Below are positions 32,952-37,215 of a DNA stretch of 44,559 nucleotides, piece after piece. The notes below the pieces were generated by a model. That model had not been told where the DNA came from. It searched no databases and was given only the letters and a program-made list of their open reading frames with translations. A program made the translations under genes and the position numbers. This DNA is from Escherichia phage SM_A8. How positions within the stretch are numbered: the first letter of the stretch is position 1; each line of letters begins with the position of its first letter. The stretch lies in the sequence record PP920553.1; one strand, given 5' to 3'.

Positions 32952-33734
32952 TTAACGGCGGCGACGTTTACGTGGTGCTTCGTCTTCGTCGTCGTCCTCA
33001 TCTTCGTCATCGCGTGGCTTACGACGTTTGCGAGGTTTTTCATCTTCCTCATCGTCGTCGTCATCGCGGCGCTTGGATTTCTTGGACTTGCGCGGCTTGT
33101 CATCTTCATCATCGTCATCACGACGTTTTGACTTTTTGGACTTGCGCGGTGCTTCGTCTTCGTCGTCGTTGTCCAGGTCTTCATCGGAGCAAGAAGACCC
33201 GCCACCTCCGAAGGCTTCGCCGTCTTCACGGAATCGCAGACCCAGCAAGCCAGCACCGAGTCCCTTGCCGTTGGTATTGTTCCACGCCCAAATATCCAGG
33301 GACACATTGCAATAACAACCGGAGTAGATCTCCTGGCCTTCAATCTCGTCGCCGTCGATGGTCAGACCTTGTTCAGTCTGCTTCTCGCCGAGTGACGTTT
33401 GAATGATTGGTTGTTTGAACGATTTGGCGTTGATGTACAACATGCCTTCAAATTCTTCGGTTACTTCGTCACGCTCGTCACCGTCGCGAACTGCGCATTC
33501 CTTAGAATCCTGGGCGTAGTGGCGGTCCATCCACTTATCAGCATTCTTCTCGGATTTCAGCTTGTCGGTGAGCACTGCGCGCGCTGCCGCTTCCACTTTG
33601 TCCACCTGCGGATCTTCTTTATCAAGAAGAATCACTGCACGGTATGCCGGTTTTTGTCCATCCTGTTTAGGGGTATCACGTTCCCAAATTTTAAGGAAAC
33701 ATACGCGCACATTTTTCAGGTTGACTTTAGCCAT
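32952..33734 (-). CDS. hypothetical protein with repetitive charged C-terminal tail (possible ssDNA-binding protein)
   Basis: ATG 33734 with GAGGA RBS; N-terminus MAKVNLKNVRVCF; C-terminal alternating poly-D/E and PRKSKKSKRR blocks from tandem DNA repeats. Confidence 0.5.
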   Translation of the reverse strand: MAKVNLKNVRVCFLKIWERDTPKQDGQKPAYRAVILLDKEDPQVDKVEAAARAVLTDKLKSEKNADKWMDRHYAQDSKECAVRDGDERDEVTEEFEGMLYINAKSFKQPIIQTSLGEKQTEQGLTIDGDEIEGQEIYSGCYCNVSLDIWAWNNTNGKGLGAGLLGLRFREDGEAFGGGGSSCSDEDLDNDDEDEAPRKSKKSKRRDDDDEDDKPRKSKKSKRRDDDDDEEDEKPRKRRKPRDDEDEDDDEDEAPRKRRRR

Positions 33735-33798
33735 TTTCCAATTCCTCATTTTCACATATATCGGGGTTATTATGAGCCACCCCGTTCGGCTTGGTTGC

Positions 33799-35490: not shown

Positions 35491-35669
35491 TATTCCACCC
35501 GTGTAAACTGGACAATTACATATTTCACATTAGCCAGGCCCGCTTTTTCGACTCGGCGCTTAACTTCATTTTGCGCGTCCACAAAGCAATTGCTTGCGTT
35601 GGTGTTTTCAACAATAAAAGAAGTGTGATCGTTTAATTCGTGGCAAGTTGCCATGACGAAGAATTTCAT
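35490..35669 (-). CDS. hypothetical protein
   Basis: 59-aa product from ATG 35669 within track ORF 35490..35750. Confidence 0.4.
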   Translation of the reverse strand: MKFFVMATCHELNDHTSFIVENTNASNCFVDAQNEVKRRVEKAGLANVKYVIVQFTRVE

Positions 35670-35920
35670 TATTTTGTCTCCCAGCGGTCGATTGTTTTTG
35701 CTTCGGATGCAACTGCGAAGCGAACATATTCCAGATTTGAATCCGCCCAAATATAAAAGTCGGGATTAATAAAGGTGGTGCGCTTGATTTGCGCGGGGGT
35801 GTTGCGGCGTTTGTCTATTACGGCAACGCGCGATTGAAAGCTGCCGATGCGTTCGAATAGCCAATAATAAGGGCGTTGGTCGCGTGAATCCACCGCCTCG
35901 ATTAGCGTGAAGCGTGCCAT
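35669..35920 (-). CDS. hypothetical protein
   Basis: 83-aa ORF; no motif recognised. Confidence 0.45.
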   Translation of the reverse strand: MARFTLIEAVDSRDQRPYYWLFERIGSFQSRVAVIDKRRNTPAQIKRTTFINPDFYIWADSNLEYVRFAVASEAKTIDRWETK

Positions 35921-35930
35921 TGTCTCGTCC

Positions 35931-35960
35931 TCTAAAAAGAGGCCCGCTAATCTGCGGGCC
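35931..35960 (-). terminator. intrinsic terminator after first leftward early gene
   Basis: minus-sense GGCCCGCAGATTAGCGGGCC followed by TCTTTTT. Confidence 0.5.
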
Positions 35961-35968
35961 GGAATATA

Positions 35969-36484
35969 TTAATCTTCCAGTTCGAAATAGGTTTCGACGA
36001 TTTCTTTTAGCTCTTTGTGGAAGTCTTCGACGTCGTCATCTTCCAGCTTGGCGATTGATTTGATCTCGAACGATTCCAGCAGGTCGTCGAATTCGTCGTT
36101 CGCGTCATCATCATCACCGCCTGCAATAATAGCGGCATACTGCTTGATTTCGTCGCGCATTTCGACCAGCGGATCGGCATCTTTCTTACCTTTGCCTTTC
36201 GCCGGTGCTTTCTTAGCCTTAGCCGGTTTTTCGTCTTCGGCATCGTCGTCGTCATCTTCTACGACTTCTTTTTTAGCCTTACCTTTCGCCGGTGCTTTTT
36301 TAGATTTAGCCGGTTTTTCGTCTTCAGCTTCATCGTCGTCATCTTCGACAACTTCTTTTTTGGCCTTAGACGGCTTCTTGTCTTCCTGCTTACCAACGGC
36401 AGCGCCAACGGTTTCATAATGCTTTGCAATGGTTTCCAGTGCTACTACGCCGCGAGTGATCAGGTTTACGATTTGCTCAAACAT
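35969..36484 (-). CDS. acidic/lysine-rich repeat protein (first gene of leftward early operon)
   Basis: ATG 36484 with GGAGAT RBS; two 29-aa repeats (KKEVVEDDDDEAEDEKPAKSKKAPAKGKA) from an 87-bp tandem DNA repeat; poly-D C-terminal region. Confidence 0.55.
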   Translation of the reverse strand: MFEQIVNLITRGVVALETIAKHYETVGAAVGKQEDKKPSKAKKEVVEDDDDEAEDEKPAKSKKAPAKGKAKKEVVEDDDDDAEDEKPAKAKKAPAKGKGKKDADPLVEMRDEIKQYAAIIAGGDDDDANDEFDDLLESFEIKSIAKLEDDDVEDFHKELKEIVETYFELED

Positions 36485-36679
36485 GGTATATCTCCGATTG
36501 GTTAAGTTTAGGTGTCGGCAGTTAACTTCGTCGGTGGCCTTAACATATTGCCAGGTTACGCGTTCTCCCGTTCGGGTAGTGGACCTGGTTATATAATCAC
36601 GGTTGGGAATCCTGACACTTCGATCCGGCCCCTGCGTTGCCCCTCTCCAGTTTGCGTCCTGCATCCTGTCGACGGAGTG

Positions 36680-36708
36680 AATATTAGATTGGTTGCAGAA
36701 GGGAGTCA
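36680..36708 (-). promoter_or_regulatory. leftward early promoter (P2)
   Basis: minus-sense TTGACT-N17-TAATAT with a GCAACCAA copy in the spacer; about 190 nt upstream of first leftward gene. Confidence 0.5.
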
Positions 36709-36719
36709 ACAACTAATTT

Positions 36720-36754
36720 CAAAAAAAAAGCGCCGAGGCAAAATGCACCGGCGC
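36720..36754 (-). terminator. rho-independent terminator on minus strand
   Basis: minus-sense GCGCCG-13 nt loop-CGGCGC followed by T10 (plus strand A10 at 36720-36729). Confidence 0.55.
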
Positions 36755-36778
36755 TAACCAATAAGAGACAATGAGACG
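36720..36778 (-). ncRNA. candidate small RNA (~55 nt) from P1 to the terminator
   Basis: predicted transcript starts ~7 nt after the -10 and ends at the T10 tract; no ORF or RBS inside. Confidence 0.25.
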
Positions 36779-36784
36779 GGAATT

Positions 36785-36813
36785 ATTATTACACGCGTGC
36801 GCGCCCGTTTCAA
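36785..36813 (-). promoter_or_regulatory. leftward promoter (P1) directly upstream of the minus-strand terminator
   Basis: minus-sense TTGAAA-N17-AATAAT. Confidence 0.45.
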
Positions 36814-36885: not shown

Positions 36886-37215
36886 ATGAATATCAAAGAA
36901 GCAATTGAAGTGTTATCTAATGCAATCCGCGGCGAAGCGGGTAAATCCTGGTATTACACAAATGCGGTGGATACTCTGTTATTTGAAGTGTCCAGATTAT
37001 CGCGTGCTGAGAAGGAGCTTACCGCGAAGCTAGAATTGCTCAACGGCACGGCAGCAAGCAAGCTGCAAAAACACAATGAAGAAATGGAAGAATACAAAAA
37101 ACAGGTTATCCGTCTACGTGAGGAAGGTAAATCCTGGGCGATGATCGCCGAGTTGACCGGAATTAATCAGAGCACAGTGCGCTCCTGGGTACGCAATAAT
37201 AAAACTTCAAAGTAA
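36886..37215 (+). CDS. HTH DNA-binding protein (putative transcriptional regulator)
   Basis: 109 aa; C-terminal helix-turn-helix KSWAMIAELTGINQSTVRSWVRN; first gene of rightward operon. Confidence 0.6.
   Translation: MNIKEAIEVLSNAIRGEAGKSWYYTNAVDTLLFEVSRLSRAEKELTAKLELLNGTAASKLQKHNEEMEEYKKQVIRLREEGKSWAMIAELTGINQSTVRSWVRNNKTSK

What the first reader, a model, noticed from the sequence alone, without database searches (positions are those of the whole stretch)
35931..36484. First leftward early gene encodes an acidic repeat protein and is followed by its own terminator
The product carries two 29-aa repeats from an 87-bp tandem DNA duplication (about 36190-36363) and several poly-Asp/Glu runs mixed with lysine-rich KPAK blocks. 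Placement directly after the early promoter and before a terminator (35931-35960) implies high early expression. Such highly charged early proteins are candidates for DNA mimics or nucleoid/host-factor binders.
Basis: partly seen in the sequence, partly recalled or inferred. Interest (0 to 1): 0.5.

Follow-up and report, generated by a model that had tools for sequence, protein, structure and literature searches.

The report
Abundant acidic tethered replication-module protein
This is a real, highly expressed gene of a Dhillonvirus coliphage whose repeats are only a stretchable charged spacer between two strictly conserved end domains; the protein always sits at the head of the phage's DNA replication genes, its function is untested, and it is probably not a general anti-restriction DNA mimic.

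Summary
A 171-aa ORF (35969-36484, minus strand) carries an 87-bp tandem duplication (two 29-aa units) and is followed by a conserved GC hairpin plus T-run. The window is a Dhillonvirus.

The repeats belong to a disordered, blocky acid/base linker. Its length runs from 16 to 80 aa among 102 close homologues, with 0, 1 or 2 repeat units.

The constrained parts are a 30-aa N-terminal amphipathic helix and a 65-aa three-helix C-terminal domain (net charge -20). Their pN/pS values are 0.09 and 0.055.

The same architecture occurs in Guernseyvirinae and other siphoviruses. There the gene always lies between the primase-helicase and the DUF2800 exonuclease, gp2.5-type SSB and PolA genes.

Published proteomics of phage EE09 detected the homologue as one of only four phage proteins found in infected cells.

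No fold or sequence link to any characterised protein was found.

My best reading, at low confidence, is an abundant non-enzymatic electrostatic adaptor of the replication/recombination module. An Ocr- or Gam-like host-directed mimic is less likely: Dhillonviruses are restriction-sensitive and Chi sites are enriched.

The gene is not directly behind its promoter. A ~165-nt covarying structured leader RNA lies between them. It is absent from Rfam and shared with unrelated coliphages.

The parts
35969..36484 (-). Coding sequence of the 171-aa acidic protein, stop codon included
   Evidence: ORF and RBS. PHROG 3127, E 1.4e-53, full length. 106 homologues. pN/pS 0.09 and 0.055 in the end domains, and all length differences are in frame. 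The homologue was detected by mass spectrometry in EE09-infected cells.
36395..36484 (-). Codons 1-30: conserved N-terminal amphipathic helix (MFEQIVNLITRGVVALETIAKHYETVGAAV)
   Evidence: AF2 predicts a helix at residues 2-27 with pLDDT about 67. R11, V13, A15, E17 and A20 are invariant across the wide family. Hydrophobic residues sit at heptad positions 2, 5, 9, 12, 16, 19, 23 and 26 (read from the sequence). The helix is not confidently docked on the C-domain in the short-linker variant.
36185..36394 (-). Codons 31-100: disordered blocky polyampholyte linker that contains the repeats
   Evidence: pLDDT below 50. 21 K/R against 22 D/E. Charge segregation kappa is 0.47 against 0.14 +/- 0.06 in shuffles, with 0 of 500 shuffles as high. 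Length is 16-80 aa among 102 homologues.
36194..36367 (-). Two 87-bp / 29-aa tandem repeat units (36367-36281 and 36280-36194)
   Evidence: TRF. 77-78 of 87 nt identical, 8 synonymous against 2 non-synonymous codon differences, far above codon shuffles.
35972..36184 (-). Codons 101-171: conserved, strongly acidic C-terminal three-helix domain
   Evidence: AF2 helices at 105-122, 126-138 and 152-167 with pLDDT above 90. Net charge -20, pI 4.05. A profile of this domain finds 42 representative clusters with the same overall architecture.
35934..35960 (-). Intrinsic terminator after the gene (hairpin 35960-35941 plus T-run)
   Evidence: Consensus scan. Folds at -16.6 kcal/mol. Conserved in 16 of 18 loci; in 9 of those 16 the hairpin is the exact reverse complement, which keeps the stem.
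36510..36679 (-). Structured 5' leader RNA between promoter P2 and the RBS
   Evidence: Present in 14 of 18 Dhillonvirus loci. Homologous elements occur in Warwickvirus, Changchunvirus, Sortsnevirus and IMG/VR contigs. In the 8-helix structure, 97.8% of cells pair and 19 of 42 pairs show compensatory change, against 27-45% pairing in slid controls. The covariance model scores 169.8 bits. No Rfam match even at E <= 10.
36681..36709 (-). Promoter-like site P2 (TTGACT-17-TAATAT) that would drive leader and gene
   Evidence: Consensus scan, 9 of 12 matches. Conserved in all 18 loci. The activity of this site has not been measured.
36721..36813 (-). Upstream promoter-like site P1 (TTGAAA-17-TGT-AATAAT, 36813-36785), a ~57-nt transcript, and terminator T1 (hairpin 36754-36730 plus T9)
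   Evidence: 10 of 12 matches with an extended -10. The hairpin folds at -16.9 kcal/mol. Nearly invariant across loci; L016 has compensatory stem changes.

Best explanation
The ORF encodes an abundant, non-enzymatic 19-kDa protein with three modules.
1. A conserved N-terminal amphipathic helix with a heptad pattern, which probably oligomerises or docks onto a partner.
2. An intrinsically disordered linker of alternating Asp/Glu runs and Lys-Pro-Ala blocks.
3. A conserved, very acidic three-helix head.

The 87-bp duplication is one of many in-frame expansions and contractions of the linker. The linker is constrained in composition and charge pattern, not in sequence or length.

The family is a fixed part of the replication/recombination module of Dhillonvirus, Guernseyvirinae and related enterobacterial siphoviruses. 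It always lies between the primase-helicase gene and the DUF2800 exonuclease, T7-gp2.5-type SSB and PolA genes. In most lineages it has its own promoter-like site, and here it also has its own terminator, so it is made in excess over the enzymes downstream.

Proposed mode of action (inferred, not shown): a stoichiometric electrostatic binder. The acidic head, helped by the acidic linker blocks, would occupy a basic DNA-binding surface of a replication or recombination protein, much as the acidic tails of T7-type SSBs do. The N-helix would multimerise or anchor the protein, and the tether would set its reach.
For: Shown:
- The gene is real and under purifying selection.
- The homologue is translated and abundant. 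It is one of four phage proteins detected in EE09-infected cells, together with the SSB (PMC10673088).
- Three-module architecture from AF2.
- Near-invariant ends against a 16-80-aa linker.
- The architecture is kept in 42 distant clusters.
- Strict synteny of primase-helicase, this gene, DUF2800 exonuclease, PF10991 SSB and PolA. It holds in all 28 distant IMG/VR loci that reach those genes (two are cut short at a contig end) and in Cornellvirus Shemara (pol lies beyond the fetched stretch). In Jerseyvirus Ent1 the gene was placed by the record's annotation, not by tblastn.
- A promoter-like site lies 60-80 nt upstream in 18 of 32 distant loci, further upstream in 6 more, and none was detected in 8.
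- Terminator after the gene.

Supporting the electrostatic idea:
- The head has net charge -20.
- The neighbouring SSB carries a C-terminal tail built of the same kind of acid/base units (DDDDEDD-KPRKSKKSKRR), 1-4 units across genera.
- In T7-type SSBs, including Enc34 ORF6, the acidic tail competes with DNA for the binding groove and contacts polymerase and helicase (PMC5686142).
Against: - No partner has been identified, and complex prediction was not possible with these tools.
- There are no Pfam or PDB sequence matches.
- Synteny shows association with the replication module, not a mechanism.
- Natural variants without any acidic linker run show that the acidic blocks are dispensable.
- The oligomeric state is only inferred from a heptad pattern and a moderate pLDDT.
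- Being first behind a promoter with early-gene-like context would also fit a host-directed function.
Confidence: 0.4

Rival explanations
1. Host-directed DNA mimic or anti-defence protein. The acidic head would block a host DNA-binding enzyme or nucleoid protein, such as a type I restriction enzyme (like Ocr or ArdA), RecBCD (like lambda Gam or T7 gp5.9) or H-NS (like T4 Arn or T7 gp5.5).
For: The protein is strongly acidic (pI 4.47) and its head has net charge -20. It is the first gene behind a promoter region, and it is abundant. It sits just upstream of the phage exonuclease, as gam and gene 5.9 do; anti-RecBCD genes are typical members of Rec modules (PMC12315714). No recognisable Gam is present. 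The 'Gam' label on the neighbouring gene is unsupported, since Pfam sees only an HTH domain there.
Against: The gene is conserved in fixed synteny across several genera, unlike patchy accessory anti-defence genes. Dhillonviruses are reported as sensitive to type I and II restriction compared with Queuovirinae, although they encode this protein; Bas14 encodes P0056 (PMC8594841). Chi sites are enriched in the window (6 against 1.37 +/- 1.08 expected), whereas lambdoid phages with a RecBCD inhibitor mostly lack Chi. There is no fold or sequence similarity to Ocr, ArdA, Gam, Abc2 or Arn.
Confidence: 0.2
2. Scaffold or client of a phage replication condensate. The blocky polyampholyte linker, together with the similarly built tail of the abundant SSB, would drive multivalent electrostatic assembly (complex coacervation) that concentrates replication proteins and DNA.
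For: Charge segregation in the linker is far above chance (kappa 0.47 against 0.14). The SSB tail has 1-4 acid/base units of the same design in all genera examined. Both proteins were among the four phage proteins detected in infected cells. An oligomerising N-helix would add valency.
Against: This reading rests on composition alone. Short-linker natural variants (16-25 aa, net positive) lack the alternating blocks yet occur on full-length phage contigs. Nothing is known about the localisation of either protein.
Confidence: 0.15
3. Histone-H1/AlgP-like DNA-binding protein. The Lys-Pro-Ala blocks would bind and compact phage or host DNA, and the acidic parts would modulate this binding.
For: KPAK/KKAPAKGK blocks resemble lysine-rich DNA-binding repeats (my own knowledge). 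The lysine-rich segments next to both folded domains are the part of the linker retained even in the shortest variants, which are net +3 to +8.
Against: The whole protein has net charge -22 and the linker about -1. The conserved domains are not basic. No DNA-binding domain was detected.
Confidence: 0.1
4. The true product is the longer 231-239-aa protein annotated in some GenBank records, starting about 60 codons upstream (ATG 36664 in this window).
For: The reading frame is open upstream as far as TTG 36712. Opt212, EE09, PEC9 and Teewinot are annotated this way.
Against: The upstream stretch is out of frame in L005 (-1 nt) and in L011 and L012 (+2 nt), and it is missing in L004, L006, L010 and L016. 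It shows RNA-type covariation, including G-U pairs. A good RBS precedes ATG 36484. All distant family members start at the M-[FL]-[ED] helix.
Confidence: 0.02

Closest known systems
PHROG 3127 / 'hypothetical protein' of Dhillonvirus (e.g. EE09 CDS56, TheodorHerzl gp48, SO-1 gp46), and distant relatives such as Jerseyvirus Ent1 gp41, Edwardsiella phage eiAU gp46 and Salmonella phage MB78 '13.88 kDa late protein'
   Same: Same family by sequence (E 1.4e-53 to PHROG 3127; 94-98% identity to many records), with the same three-module architecture and the same genomic position.
   Different: Nothing differs in kind; this copy has two linker units. The family has no assigned function anywhere.
Acidic C-terminal tails of T7-gp2.5-type SSBs (T7 gp2.5, Enc34 ORF6)
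   Same: An acidic segment acts as a DNA mimic within a phage replisome, competing with DNA for a basic groove and contacting polymerase and helicase (PMC5686142). The proposed working principle is the same, and the gene is encoded three genes away (two small ORFs and the DUF2800 exonuclease lie between) from such an SSB.
   Different: Here the acidic element is a folded three-helix domain on a separate protein with an oligomerising or docking helix, not a tail on an OB fold. No binding has been shown.
Phage DNA-mimic inhibitors (T7 Ocr, ArdA, lambda Gam, T7 gp5.9, T4 Arn)
   Same: Small, acidic, abundant proteins made from promoter-proximal genes. Gam and gp5.9 also lie next to the phage exonuclease.
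   Different: No sequence or fold similarity. The gene is a conserved syntenic core gene. The phages remain restriction-sensitive, and Chi is enriched rather than avoided.
Tethered-domain proteins with charged spacers (TonB Glu-Pro/Lys-Pro spacer, ribosomal stalk L7/L12, phi29 p16.7)
   Same: An N-terminal anchoring or dimerising helix, a flexible or charged spacer of variable length, and a small C-terminal binding domain (my own knowledge, offered as an analogy).
   Different: No homology. The N-helix is not a membrane span, because it contains R11, E17, K21 and E24.
HK022 put RNA (relevant to the leader RNA, not to the protein)
   Same: A structured RNA placed immediately downstream of an early promoter in a phage that has intrinsic terminators inside its operons (PMC9378689 abstract).
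   Different: The leader is ~165 nt with 8 helices, and no sequence relation was tested. Four Dhillonviruses lack it yet keep the terminator. Antitermination has not been tested.

Membership tests
PHROG 3127 (uncharacterised phage protein family) | Full-length match to the family profile | tested here: met
   E 1.4e-53, residues 1-171 matched to profile positions 1-178 of 178.
Wider 'N-helix, charged linker, acidic three-helix domain' family | N-terminal motif with invariant R-x-V-x-A-x-E-x-x-A, and a C-terminal domain matching the profile | tested here: met
   R11, V13, A15, E17 and A20 are invariant in 27-32 diverse members. The C-domain profile finds 42 clusters with E <= 1e-3.
Wider 'N-helix, charged linker, acidic three-helix domain' family | Position between the primase-helicase gene and the DUF2800 exonuclease, PF10991 SSB and PolA genes | tested here: met
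   The order holds in the window and in all 28 distant IMG/VR loci that extend far enough; two are cut at a contig end. Shemara shows it up to the SSB, and in Ent1 the gene is placed by the record's annotation.
Ocr/ArdA-type anti-restriction DNA mimics | Sequence or fold similarity to Ocr or ArdA | tested here: not met
Ocr/ArdA-type anti-restriction DNA mimics | Confers resistance to type I restriction on the phage | tested here: inconclusive
   Literature only. Dhillonviruses, which encode this protein, are described as sensitive to type I and II systems relative to Queuovirinae (PMC8594841). No direct assay of this gene exists.
Gam / gp5.9-type RecBCD inhibitors | Homology to Gam, GamL, Abc2, MuGam or gp5.9 | tested here: not met
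   No Pfam, PDB or fold match.
Gam / gp5.9-type RecBCD inhibitors | Genome depleted of Chi, as in lambdoid phages that carry an inhibitor | tested here: not met
   6 Chi sites against 1.37 +/- 1.08 expected; 0 of 100 shuffles reach 6. The rule comes from PMC12315714, holds for lambdoid phages, and is only indirect here.
Gam / gp5.9-type RecBCD inhibitors | Binds and inhibits RecBCD | not testable with these tools
   Needs biochemistry or genetics.
Lysine-rich histone-like repeat proteins (H1/AlgP type) | Net basic K/A/P repeat region | tested here: not met
   The linker has 21 K/R against 22 D/E (net -1), and the whole protein is net -22.
Intrinsic (Rho-independent) terminator | GC-rich hairpin followed directly by a U-run, kept across relatives | tested here: met
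   7 G-C pairs, 6-nt loop, TCTTTTT tail, -16.6 kcal/mol. Present in 16 of 18 loci, with the stem kept despite inversion of the hairpin. Termination efficiency was not measured.
Any Rfam 15 family (for the leader RNA) | Match to a covariance model | tested here: not met
   No match over the leader at E <= 1 in 1.9 kb, and none at E <= 10 in 196 nt.

The most novel reading that the evidence does not exclude
The protein and the neighbouring gp2.5-type SSB are a matched pair of abundant blocky polyampholytes. An oligomerising N-helix, acid/base block tethers and acidic heads or tails would together build an electrostatically assembled replication compartment in small coliphage siphoviruses. Free in-frame expansion and contraction of the block units (0-2 here, 1-4 in the SSB) would then tune the material properties of that compartment. 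This would be a condensate-type organiser of phage replication with no characterised relative.
Probability: 0.12. Interest if true: 0.7.

Novelty: new member of a known kind. Interest (0 to 1): 0.42.

Why it matters
This family is one of the most abundant proteins made by a large, therapeutically used group of E. coli and Salmonella siphoviruses: Dhillonvirus, Jerseyvirus, Kagunavirus and relatives. It sits at a fixed place in their replication module, yet nobody knows what it does.

The analysis shows that the eye-catching repeats are a dispensable spacer and that the two short end domains carry the constraint. That tells experimenters what to mutate and what to use as bait.

If the protein is a replisome adaptor or organiser, it fills a gap in the gp2.5-SSB/PolA/DUF2800 type of phage replication system. 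If it instead targets a host factor, it is a conserved take-over protein.

The unit also has value for phage engineering and RNA biology. It contains an undescribed, covariation-supported ~165-nt leader RNA that is shared by unrelated phage genera and always sits right behind a strong promoter.

Tried and rejected
- Pfam, NCBI-independent profile and PDB sequence searches of the protein, the C-domain profile and 27 family members gave nothing above noise.
- A second AF2 run on the natural 115-aa short-linker variant, with a diverse alignment, tested whether the N-helix folds back on the C-domain. It does not do so confidently (pLDDT about 50, pTM 0.53).
- I checked whether the gene is one of the two characterised Dhillonvirus small proteins. 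It is neither. Ksap1 is a 74-aa protein at another locus (PMC11564622), and anti-Tmn is ORF35 of SMS22 with a beta-sheet domain (PMC11846954).
- A metagenome scan with a 16-nt leader word was a poor choice. 118 of 120 loci were chance matches and only L160 and L177 were real.
- Folding the leader as a single sequence gave no signal (z 0.43). The structure became visible only by comparison across phage genera.
- ARAGORN found no tRNA or tmRNA in the window.
- Literature searches for MB78 and for a description of the leader RNA found nothing relevant.
- The Ser-rich ORF on the opposite strand (36015-36419, plus strand) was rejected as a mirror image of the GA-rich coding strand. The selection pattern fits the minus-strand frame.
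- I tested whether the leader is tied to the terminator, as a put-like element would be. The four leaderless Dhillonviruses keep the terminator, so there is no co-occurrence signal.
Full report
**What the window is.** A 1.7-kb stretch around the finding is 91-96% identical to more than 140 GenBank phages of the genus Dhillonvirus (HK578/SO-1-like E. coli siphoviruses). Structural genes run rightward to about 24 kb. A leftward block runs from 36484 down to about 24 kb, and a rightward block starts at 36886. The finding is therefore the first gene leftward of a 400-bp divergent control region.

**The observation.**
- The ORF runs from ATG 36484 to TAA 35969 on the minus strand and encodes 171 aa. 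GGAGA lies 6 nt upstream of the ATG.
- Tandem Repeats Finder reports an 87-bp period, 2.2 copies, 36180-36368.
- In frame, the copies are 36367-36281 and 36280-36194. They share 77-78 of 87 nt, with eight synonymous and two non-synonymous codon differences.
- Codon shuffles of the gene never exceed 50 of 87 matches. The duplication is real, not very recent, and has been kept in frame.
- The hairpin GGCCCGC-AGATTA-GCGGGCC plus TCTTTTT (35960-35934) matches the terminator consensus and folds at -16.6 kcal/mol.
- In 18 aligned Dhillonvirus loci it is present in 16. In 9 of those 16 the hairpin is the exact reverse complement, which preserves the stem. In two slur05-like loci an extra ORF is inserted right after the stop codon.

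**The gene is real and expressed.**
- It matches PHROG 3127 (unknown function) over its full length.
- It has 106 homologues, nearly all on contigs of 44-45 kb.
- Across 18 loci, pN/pS is 0.09 for the first 30 codons and 0.055 for the last 71. All eleven gene lengths are multiples of three.
- A proteomics study of Dhillonvirus EE09 detected only four phage proteins in infected cells at 25 min: CDS29, CDS40, CDS56 and CDS61 (PMC10673088).
- CDS56 (OR756193, 34845-35543) is the homologue of this gene, annotated with an N-terminal extension. CDS61 is the SSB. High expression is thus experimentally supported for a 95%-identical relative.

**The start codon.** Some records annotate a product of 231-239 aa that starts about 60 codons upstream. 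That stretch is frame-shifted in three loci, absent in four, and shows RNA-type covariation. All distant relatives start at the M-[FL]-[ED] helix. ATG 36484 is the start.

**Anatomy of the protein.**
- AlphaFold2 with a 39-sequence alignment gives a helix at 2-27 (pLDDT about 67), disorder from 28 to 100 (below 50), and a confident three-helix bundle at 105-167 (above 90).
- Among 102 Dhillonvirus-type homologues, the N-terminal 30 aa and the C-terminal 70 aa are almost invariant.
- The linker ranges from 16 to 80 aa. The KKE[VAE][VA]-type unit is present 0, 1 or 2 times in 18, 47 and 37 proteins respectively.
- Variants such as P0082 (122 aa, on a 44.8-kb contig) have no acidic run at all. 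They keep the lysine-rich stretches next to the folded parts.
- In this window the linker has 21 K/R and 22 D/E. Its charges are much more segregated than chance (kappa 0.47 against 0.14 +/- 0.06; 0 of 500 shuffles as high).
- The C-domain has net charge -20 and pI 4.05. The whole protein is 19 kDa with pI 4.47.
- The N-helix has hydrophobic residues at heptad positions.
- In a second model of the natural 115-aa variant, the N-helix is not confidently packed on the C-domain. I infer that it binds another chain, either its own kind or a partner.

**The wider family.**
- A profile of the C-domain, searched against 1.84 billion representative proteins, finds 42 clusters. Almost all are proteins of 90-210 aa with the same plan.
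- That plan is an N-terminal 'ML[DE]KFLALLERFVVAHELIAANS' helix, a charged K/P/A/E/D-rich spacer of variable length, and the C-domain, which is occasionally duplicated.
- Over 27-32 diverse members the only invariant residues are R11, V13, A15, E17 and A20 in the N-helix.
- tblastn places these relatives in Jerseyvirus, Kagunavirus, Cornellvirus, phiEap-2 and others.
- Foldseek against viral models adds Edwardsiella phage eiAU gp46 and Salmonella phage MB78 '13.88 kDa late protein'. The latter is evidently the source of that legacy name in several records.

**Genomic context.**
- The neighbours in the window are a DUF2800/PD-(D/E)XK exonuclease, an Enc34-type (T7 gp2.5-like) SSB, a family-A DNA polymerase and an AAA_25 primase-helicase.
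- In all 28 distant IMG/VR loci that reach far enough (two are cut at a contig end), and in Shemara up to the SSB, the order is primase-helicase, this gene, often a homologue of the 83-aa gene, exonuclease, SSB, polymerase.
- The primase-helicase is divergent in some lineages and co-directional in others.
- In Jerseyvirus Ent1 the order rests on the record's annotation (gp41 between the helicase-primase and the exonuclease), not on tblastn; the annotators also marked a terminator after the gene.
- A crude scan finds a promoter-like site 60-80 nt upstream in 18 of the 32 distant loci, further upstream in 6 more and none in 8. It finds a clear hairpin plus T-run after the gene in only four of them.
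- 'Own promoter' is therefore common but not universal. 'Own terminator' is a Dhillonvirus feature shared by some others.

**What it is not.**
- No Pfam family, no PDB sequence relative and no informative fold match were found.
- It is neither Ksap1 nor anti-Tmn, the two Dhillonvirus small proteins with known roles.
- A broad Ocr-like role is unlikely. Dhillonviruses, including Bas14 which encodes P0056, are described as sensitive to type I and II restriction relative to Queuovirinae (PMC8594841).
- A Gam-like role is weakened by Chi enrichment: 6 sites against 1.37 +/- 1.08 expected, five in one orientation. Lambdoid phages with a RecBCD inhibitor mostly lack Chi (PMC12315714). This argument is indirect.

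**How it most likely works.**
- Shown: the protein is abundant. It has two short constrained end modules joined by a freely resizable polyampholyte tether. It is a fixed member of the replication/recombination module.
- Inferred: it acts stoichiometrically by protein binding.
- The neighbouring SSB offers a clue. Its C-terminal tail is built from the same kind of unit, an acidic run followed by Pro and a basic run (DDDDEDD-KPRKSKKSKRR). There are four units here and one to three in other genera.
- In T7-type SSBs the acidic tail competes with DNA for the binding groove and contacts polymerase and helicase (PMC5686142).
- I therefore favour an electrostatic, DNA-mimic-like adaptor acting on a replication or recombination protein. 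The N-helix would provide multimerisation or anchoring. My confidence in this is about 0.4.
- The rivals are a host-directed mimic (0.2), a condensate scaffold together with the SSB (0.15) and a lysine-block DNA binder (0.1).

**The control region (outside the given coordinates).** The leftward unit is more elaborate than 'promoter then gene'.
- P1 (TTGAAA-17-TGT-AATAAT, 36813-36785) is followed after about 25 nt by a conserved hairpin plus T9 (36754-36721). This would give a transcript of about 57 nt with a single-stranded 5' half. L016 has compensatory stem changes.
- P2 (36709-36681) follows directly.
- Next comes a ~165-nt leader (36679-36510). It is present in 14 of 18 loci and is replaced by 15 nt in four.
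- Its core also occurs, at 80-92% identity, in intergenic regions of Warwickvirus JK16, Changchunvirus PHB17, Sortsnevirus sortkaff/IME279 and several IMG/VR contigs.
- In each of these it lies on the coding strand and begins 7-12 nt after a -10 box. It is followed by unrelated small genes.
- A hand-drawn eight-helix structure on a gapless padded alignment of 14 sequences pairs 97.8% of cells. Nineteen of 42 pairs show compensatory change. Slid controls pair 27-45% of cells, and no shuffle reaches the observed covariation.
- Helices P3, P5 and P6 covary in columns that MAFFT aligned on its own. P1 and P2 were fitted by hand, so they lean towards the structure.
- A covariance model finds a single copy in the window (169.8 bits) and none in Jerseyvirus-like loci. 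Rfam 15 has no match even at E <= 10.
- Its function is open. Candidates are put-like antitermination, 5' stabilisation, a ribozyme or riboswitch, or a protein sponge. The leader has seven GGA motifs, which is not significant (p about 0.1).

**Verdict.** The gene is a catalogued but uncharacterised family member, so the finding itself is a new member of a known kind. The added value lies in four points: the repeats are shown to be a spacer, the conserved modules and synteny are defined, published proteomics is linked to the gene, and a candidate new structured leader RNA is exposed.

Noticed in passing
window 36510-36679 (minus strand): A ~165-nt structured 5' leader RNA lies between promoter P2 and the RBS. 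It has eight helices and strong covariation, and its invariant motifs include GGAGAGGRGC, GAUCGWAGUGUCAGGAUUCCYAACCGUGA, AGAACGC and AGGCYACCGACGARG. It is shared with Drexlerviridae (JK16, PHB17), Sortsnevirus and IMG/VR contigs. There it always sits right after a -10 box and ahead of unrelated genes. It is absent from Rfam 15 and from 4 of 18 Dhillonvirus loci.
   Followed up: partly
window 36721-36813 (minus strand): A strong promoter-like site with an extended -10 (36813-36785) is followed by a conserved GC hairpin plus T9 (36754-36721). This would give a ~57-nt transcript with an unstructured 5' half, the shape of an Hfq-type small RNA or an attenuated leader. It lies directly upstream of P2 and is nearly invariant across Dhillonviruses; L016 has compensatory stem changes.
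   Followed up: partly
window 32952-33180 (minus strand; C-terminal ~75 aa of the SSB gene 32952-33755): The Enc34/T7-gp2.5-type SSB ends in four acid/base block units (for example DDDDEDD-KPRKSKKSKRR) instead of a purely acidic tail. Related genera have 1-3 such units. The design matches the linker of the protein under study.
   Followed up: partly
window 2716, 7916, 22412, 24296, 42523 (plus strand) and 39036 (minus strand): Chi (GCTGGTGG) occurs 6 times against 1.37 +/- 1.08 expected, and 0 of 100 shuffles reach 6. Five of the six sites share one orientation. This suggests that RecBCD acts on this phage's DNA rather than being fully blocked.
   Followed up: no
window 35941-35960; loci L002-L006, L009, L012, L013, L015: In 9 of the 16 related loci that carry it, the terminator hairpin after the gene is the exact reverse complement (loop TAATCT instead of AGATTA). 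This is a hairpin-inversion polymorphism that keeps the stem.
   Followed up: no
window 36886-37215 (plus strand): The divergent 109-aa neighbour is labelled 'DNA recombination nuclease inhibitor gamma', 'transposase' or 'resolvase' in GenBank records. Pfam sees only an HTH_23/Sigma70_r4-type helix-turn-helix at residues 65-105. It is more likely a small transcription regulator, and the Gam label is unsupported.
   Followed up: partly
L002 (Opt212), L065 (EE09 CDS56), and proteins P0001, P0058, P0066, P0071, P0074: Several public records annotate the homologue 60 codons too long. They read the structured leader RNA as protein.
   Followed up: yes
L007 and L008 (slur05 / EP23-like), directly after the stop codon of the homologue: An extra ORF (MDYEMRIMLDFIAENWAAFTAF...) is inserted between the gene and the position where the terminator lies in other phages.
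   Followed up: no
window 35669-35920 (minus strand): The 83-aa gene just downstream (PHROG 4965, unknown function) also travels with the module. Homologues lie between this family's gene and the exonuclease in 17 of the 32 distant loci (15 of them with the family gene detected by tblastn).
   Followed up: no
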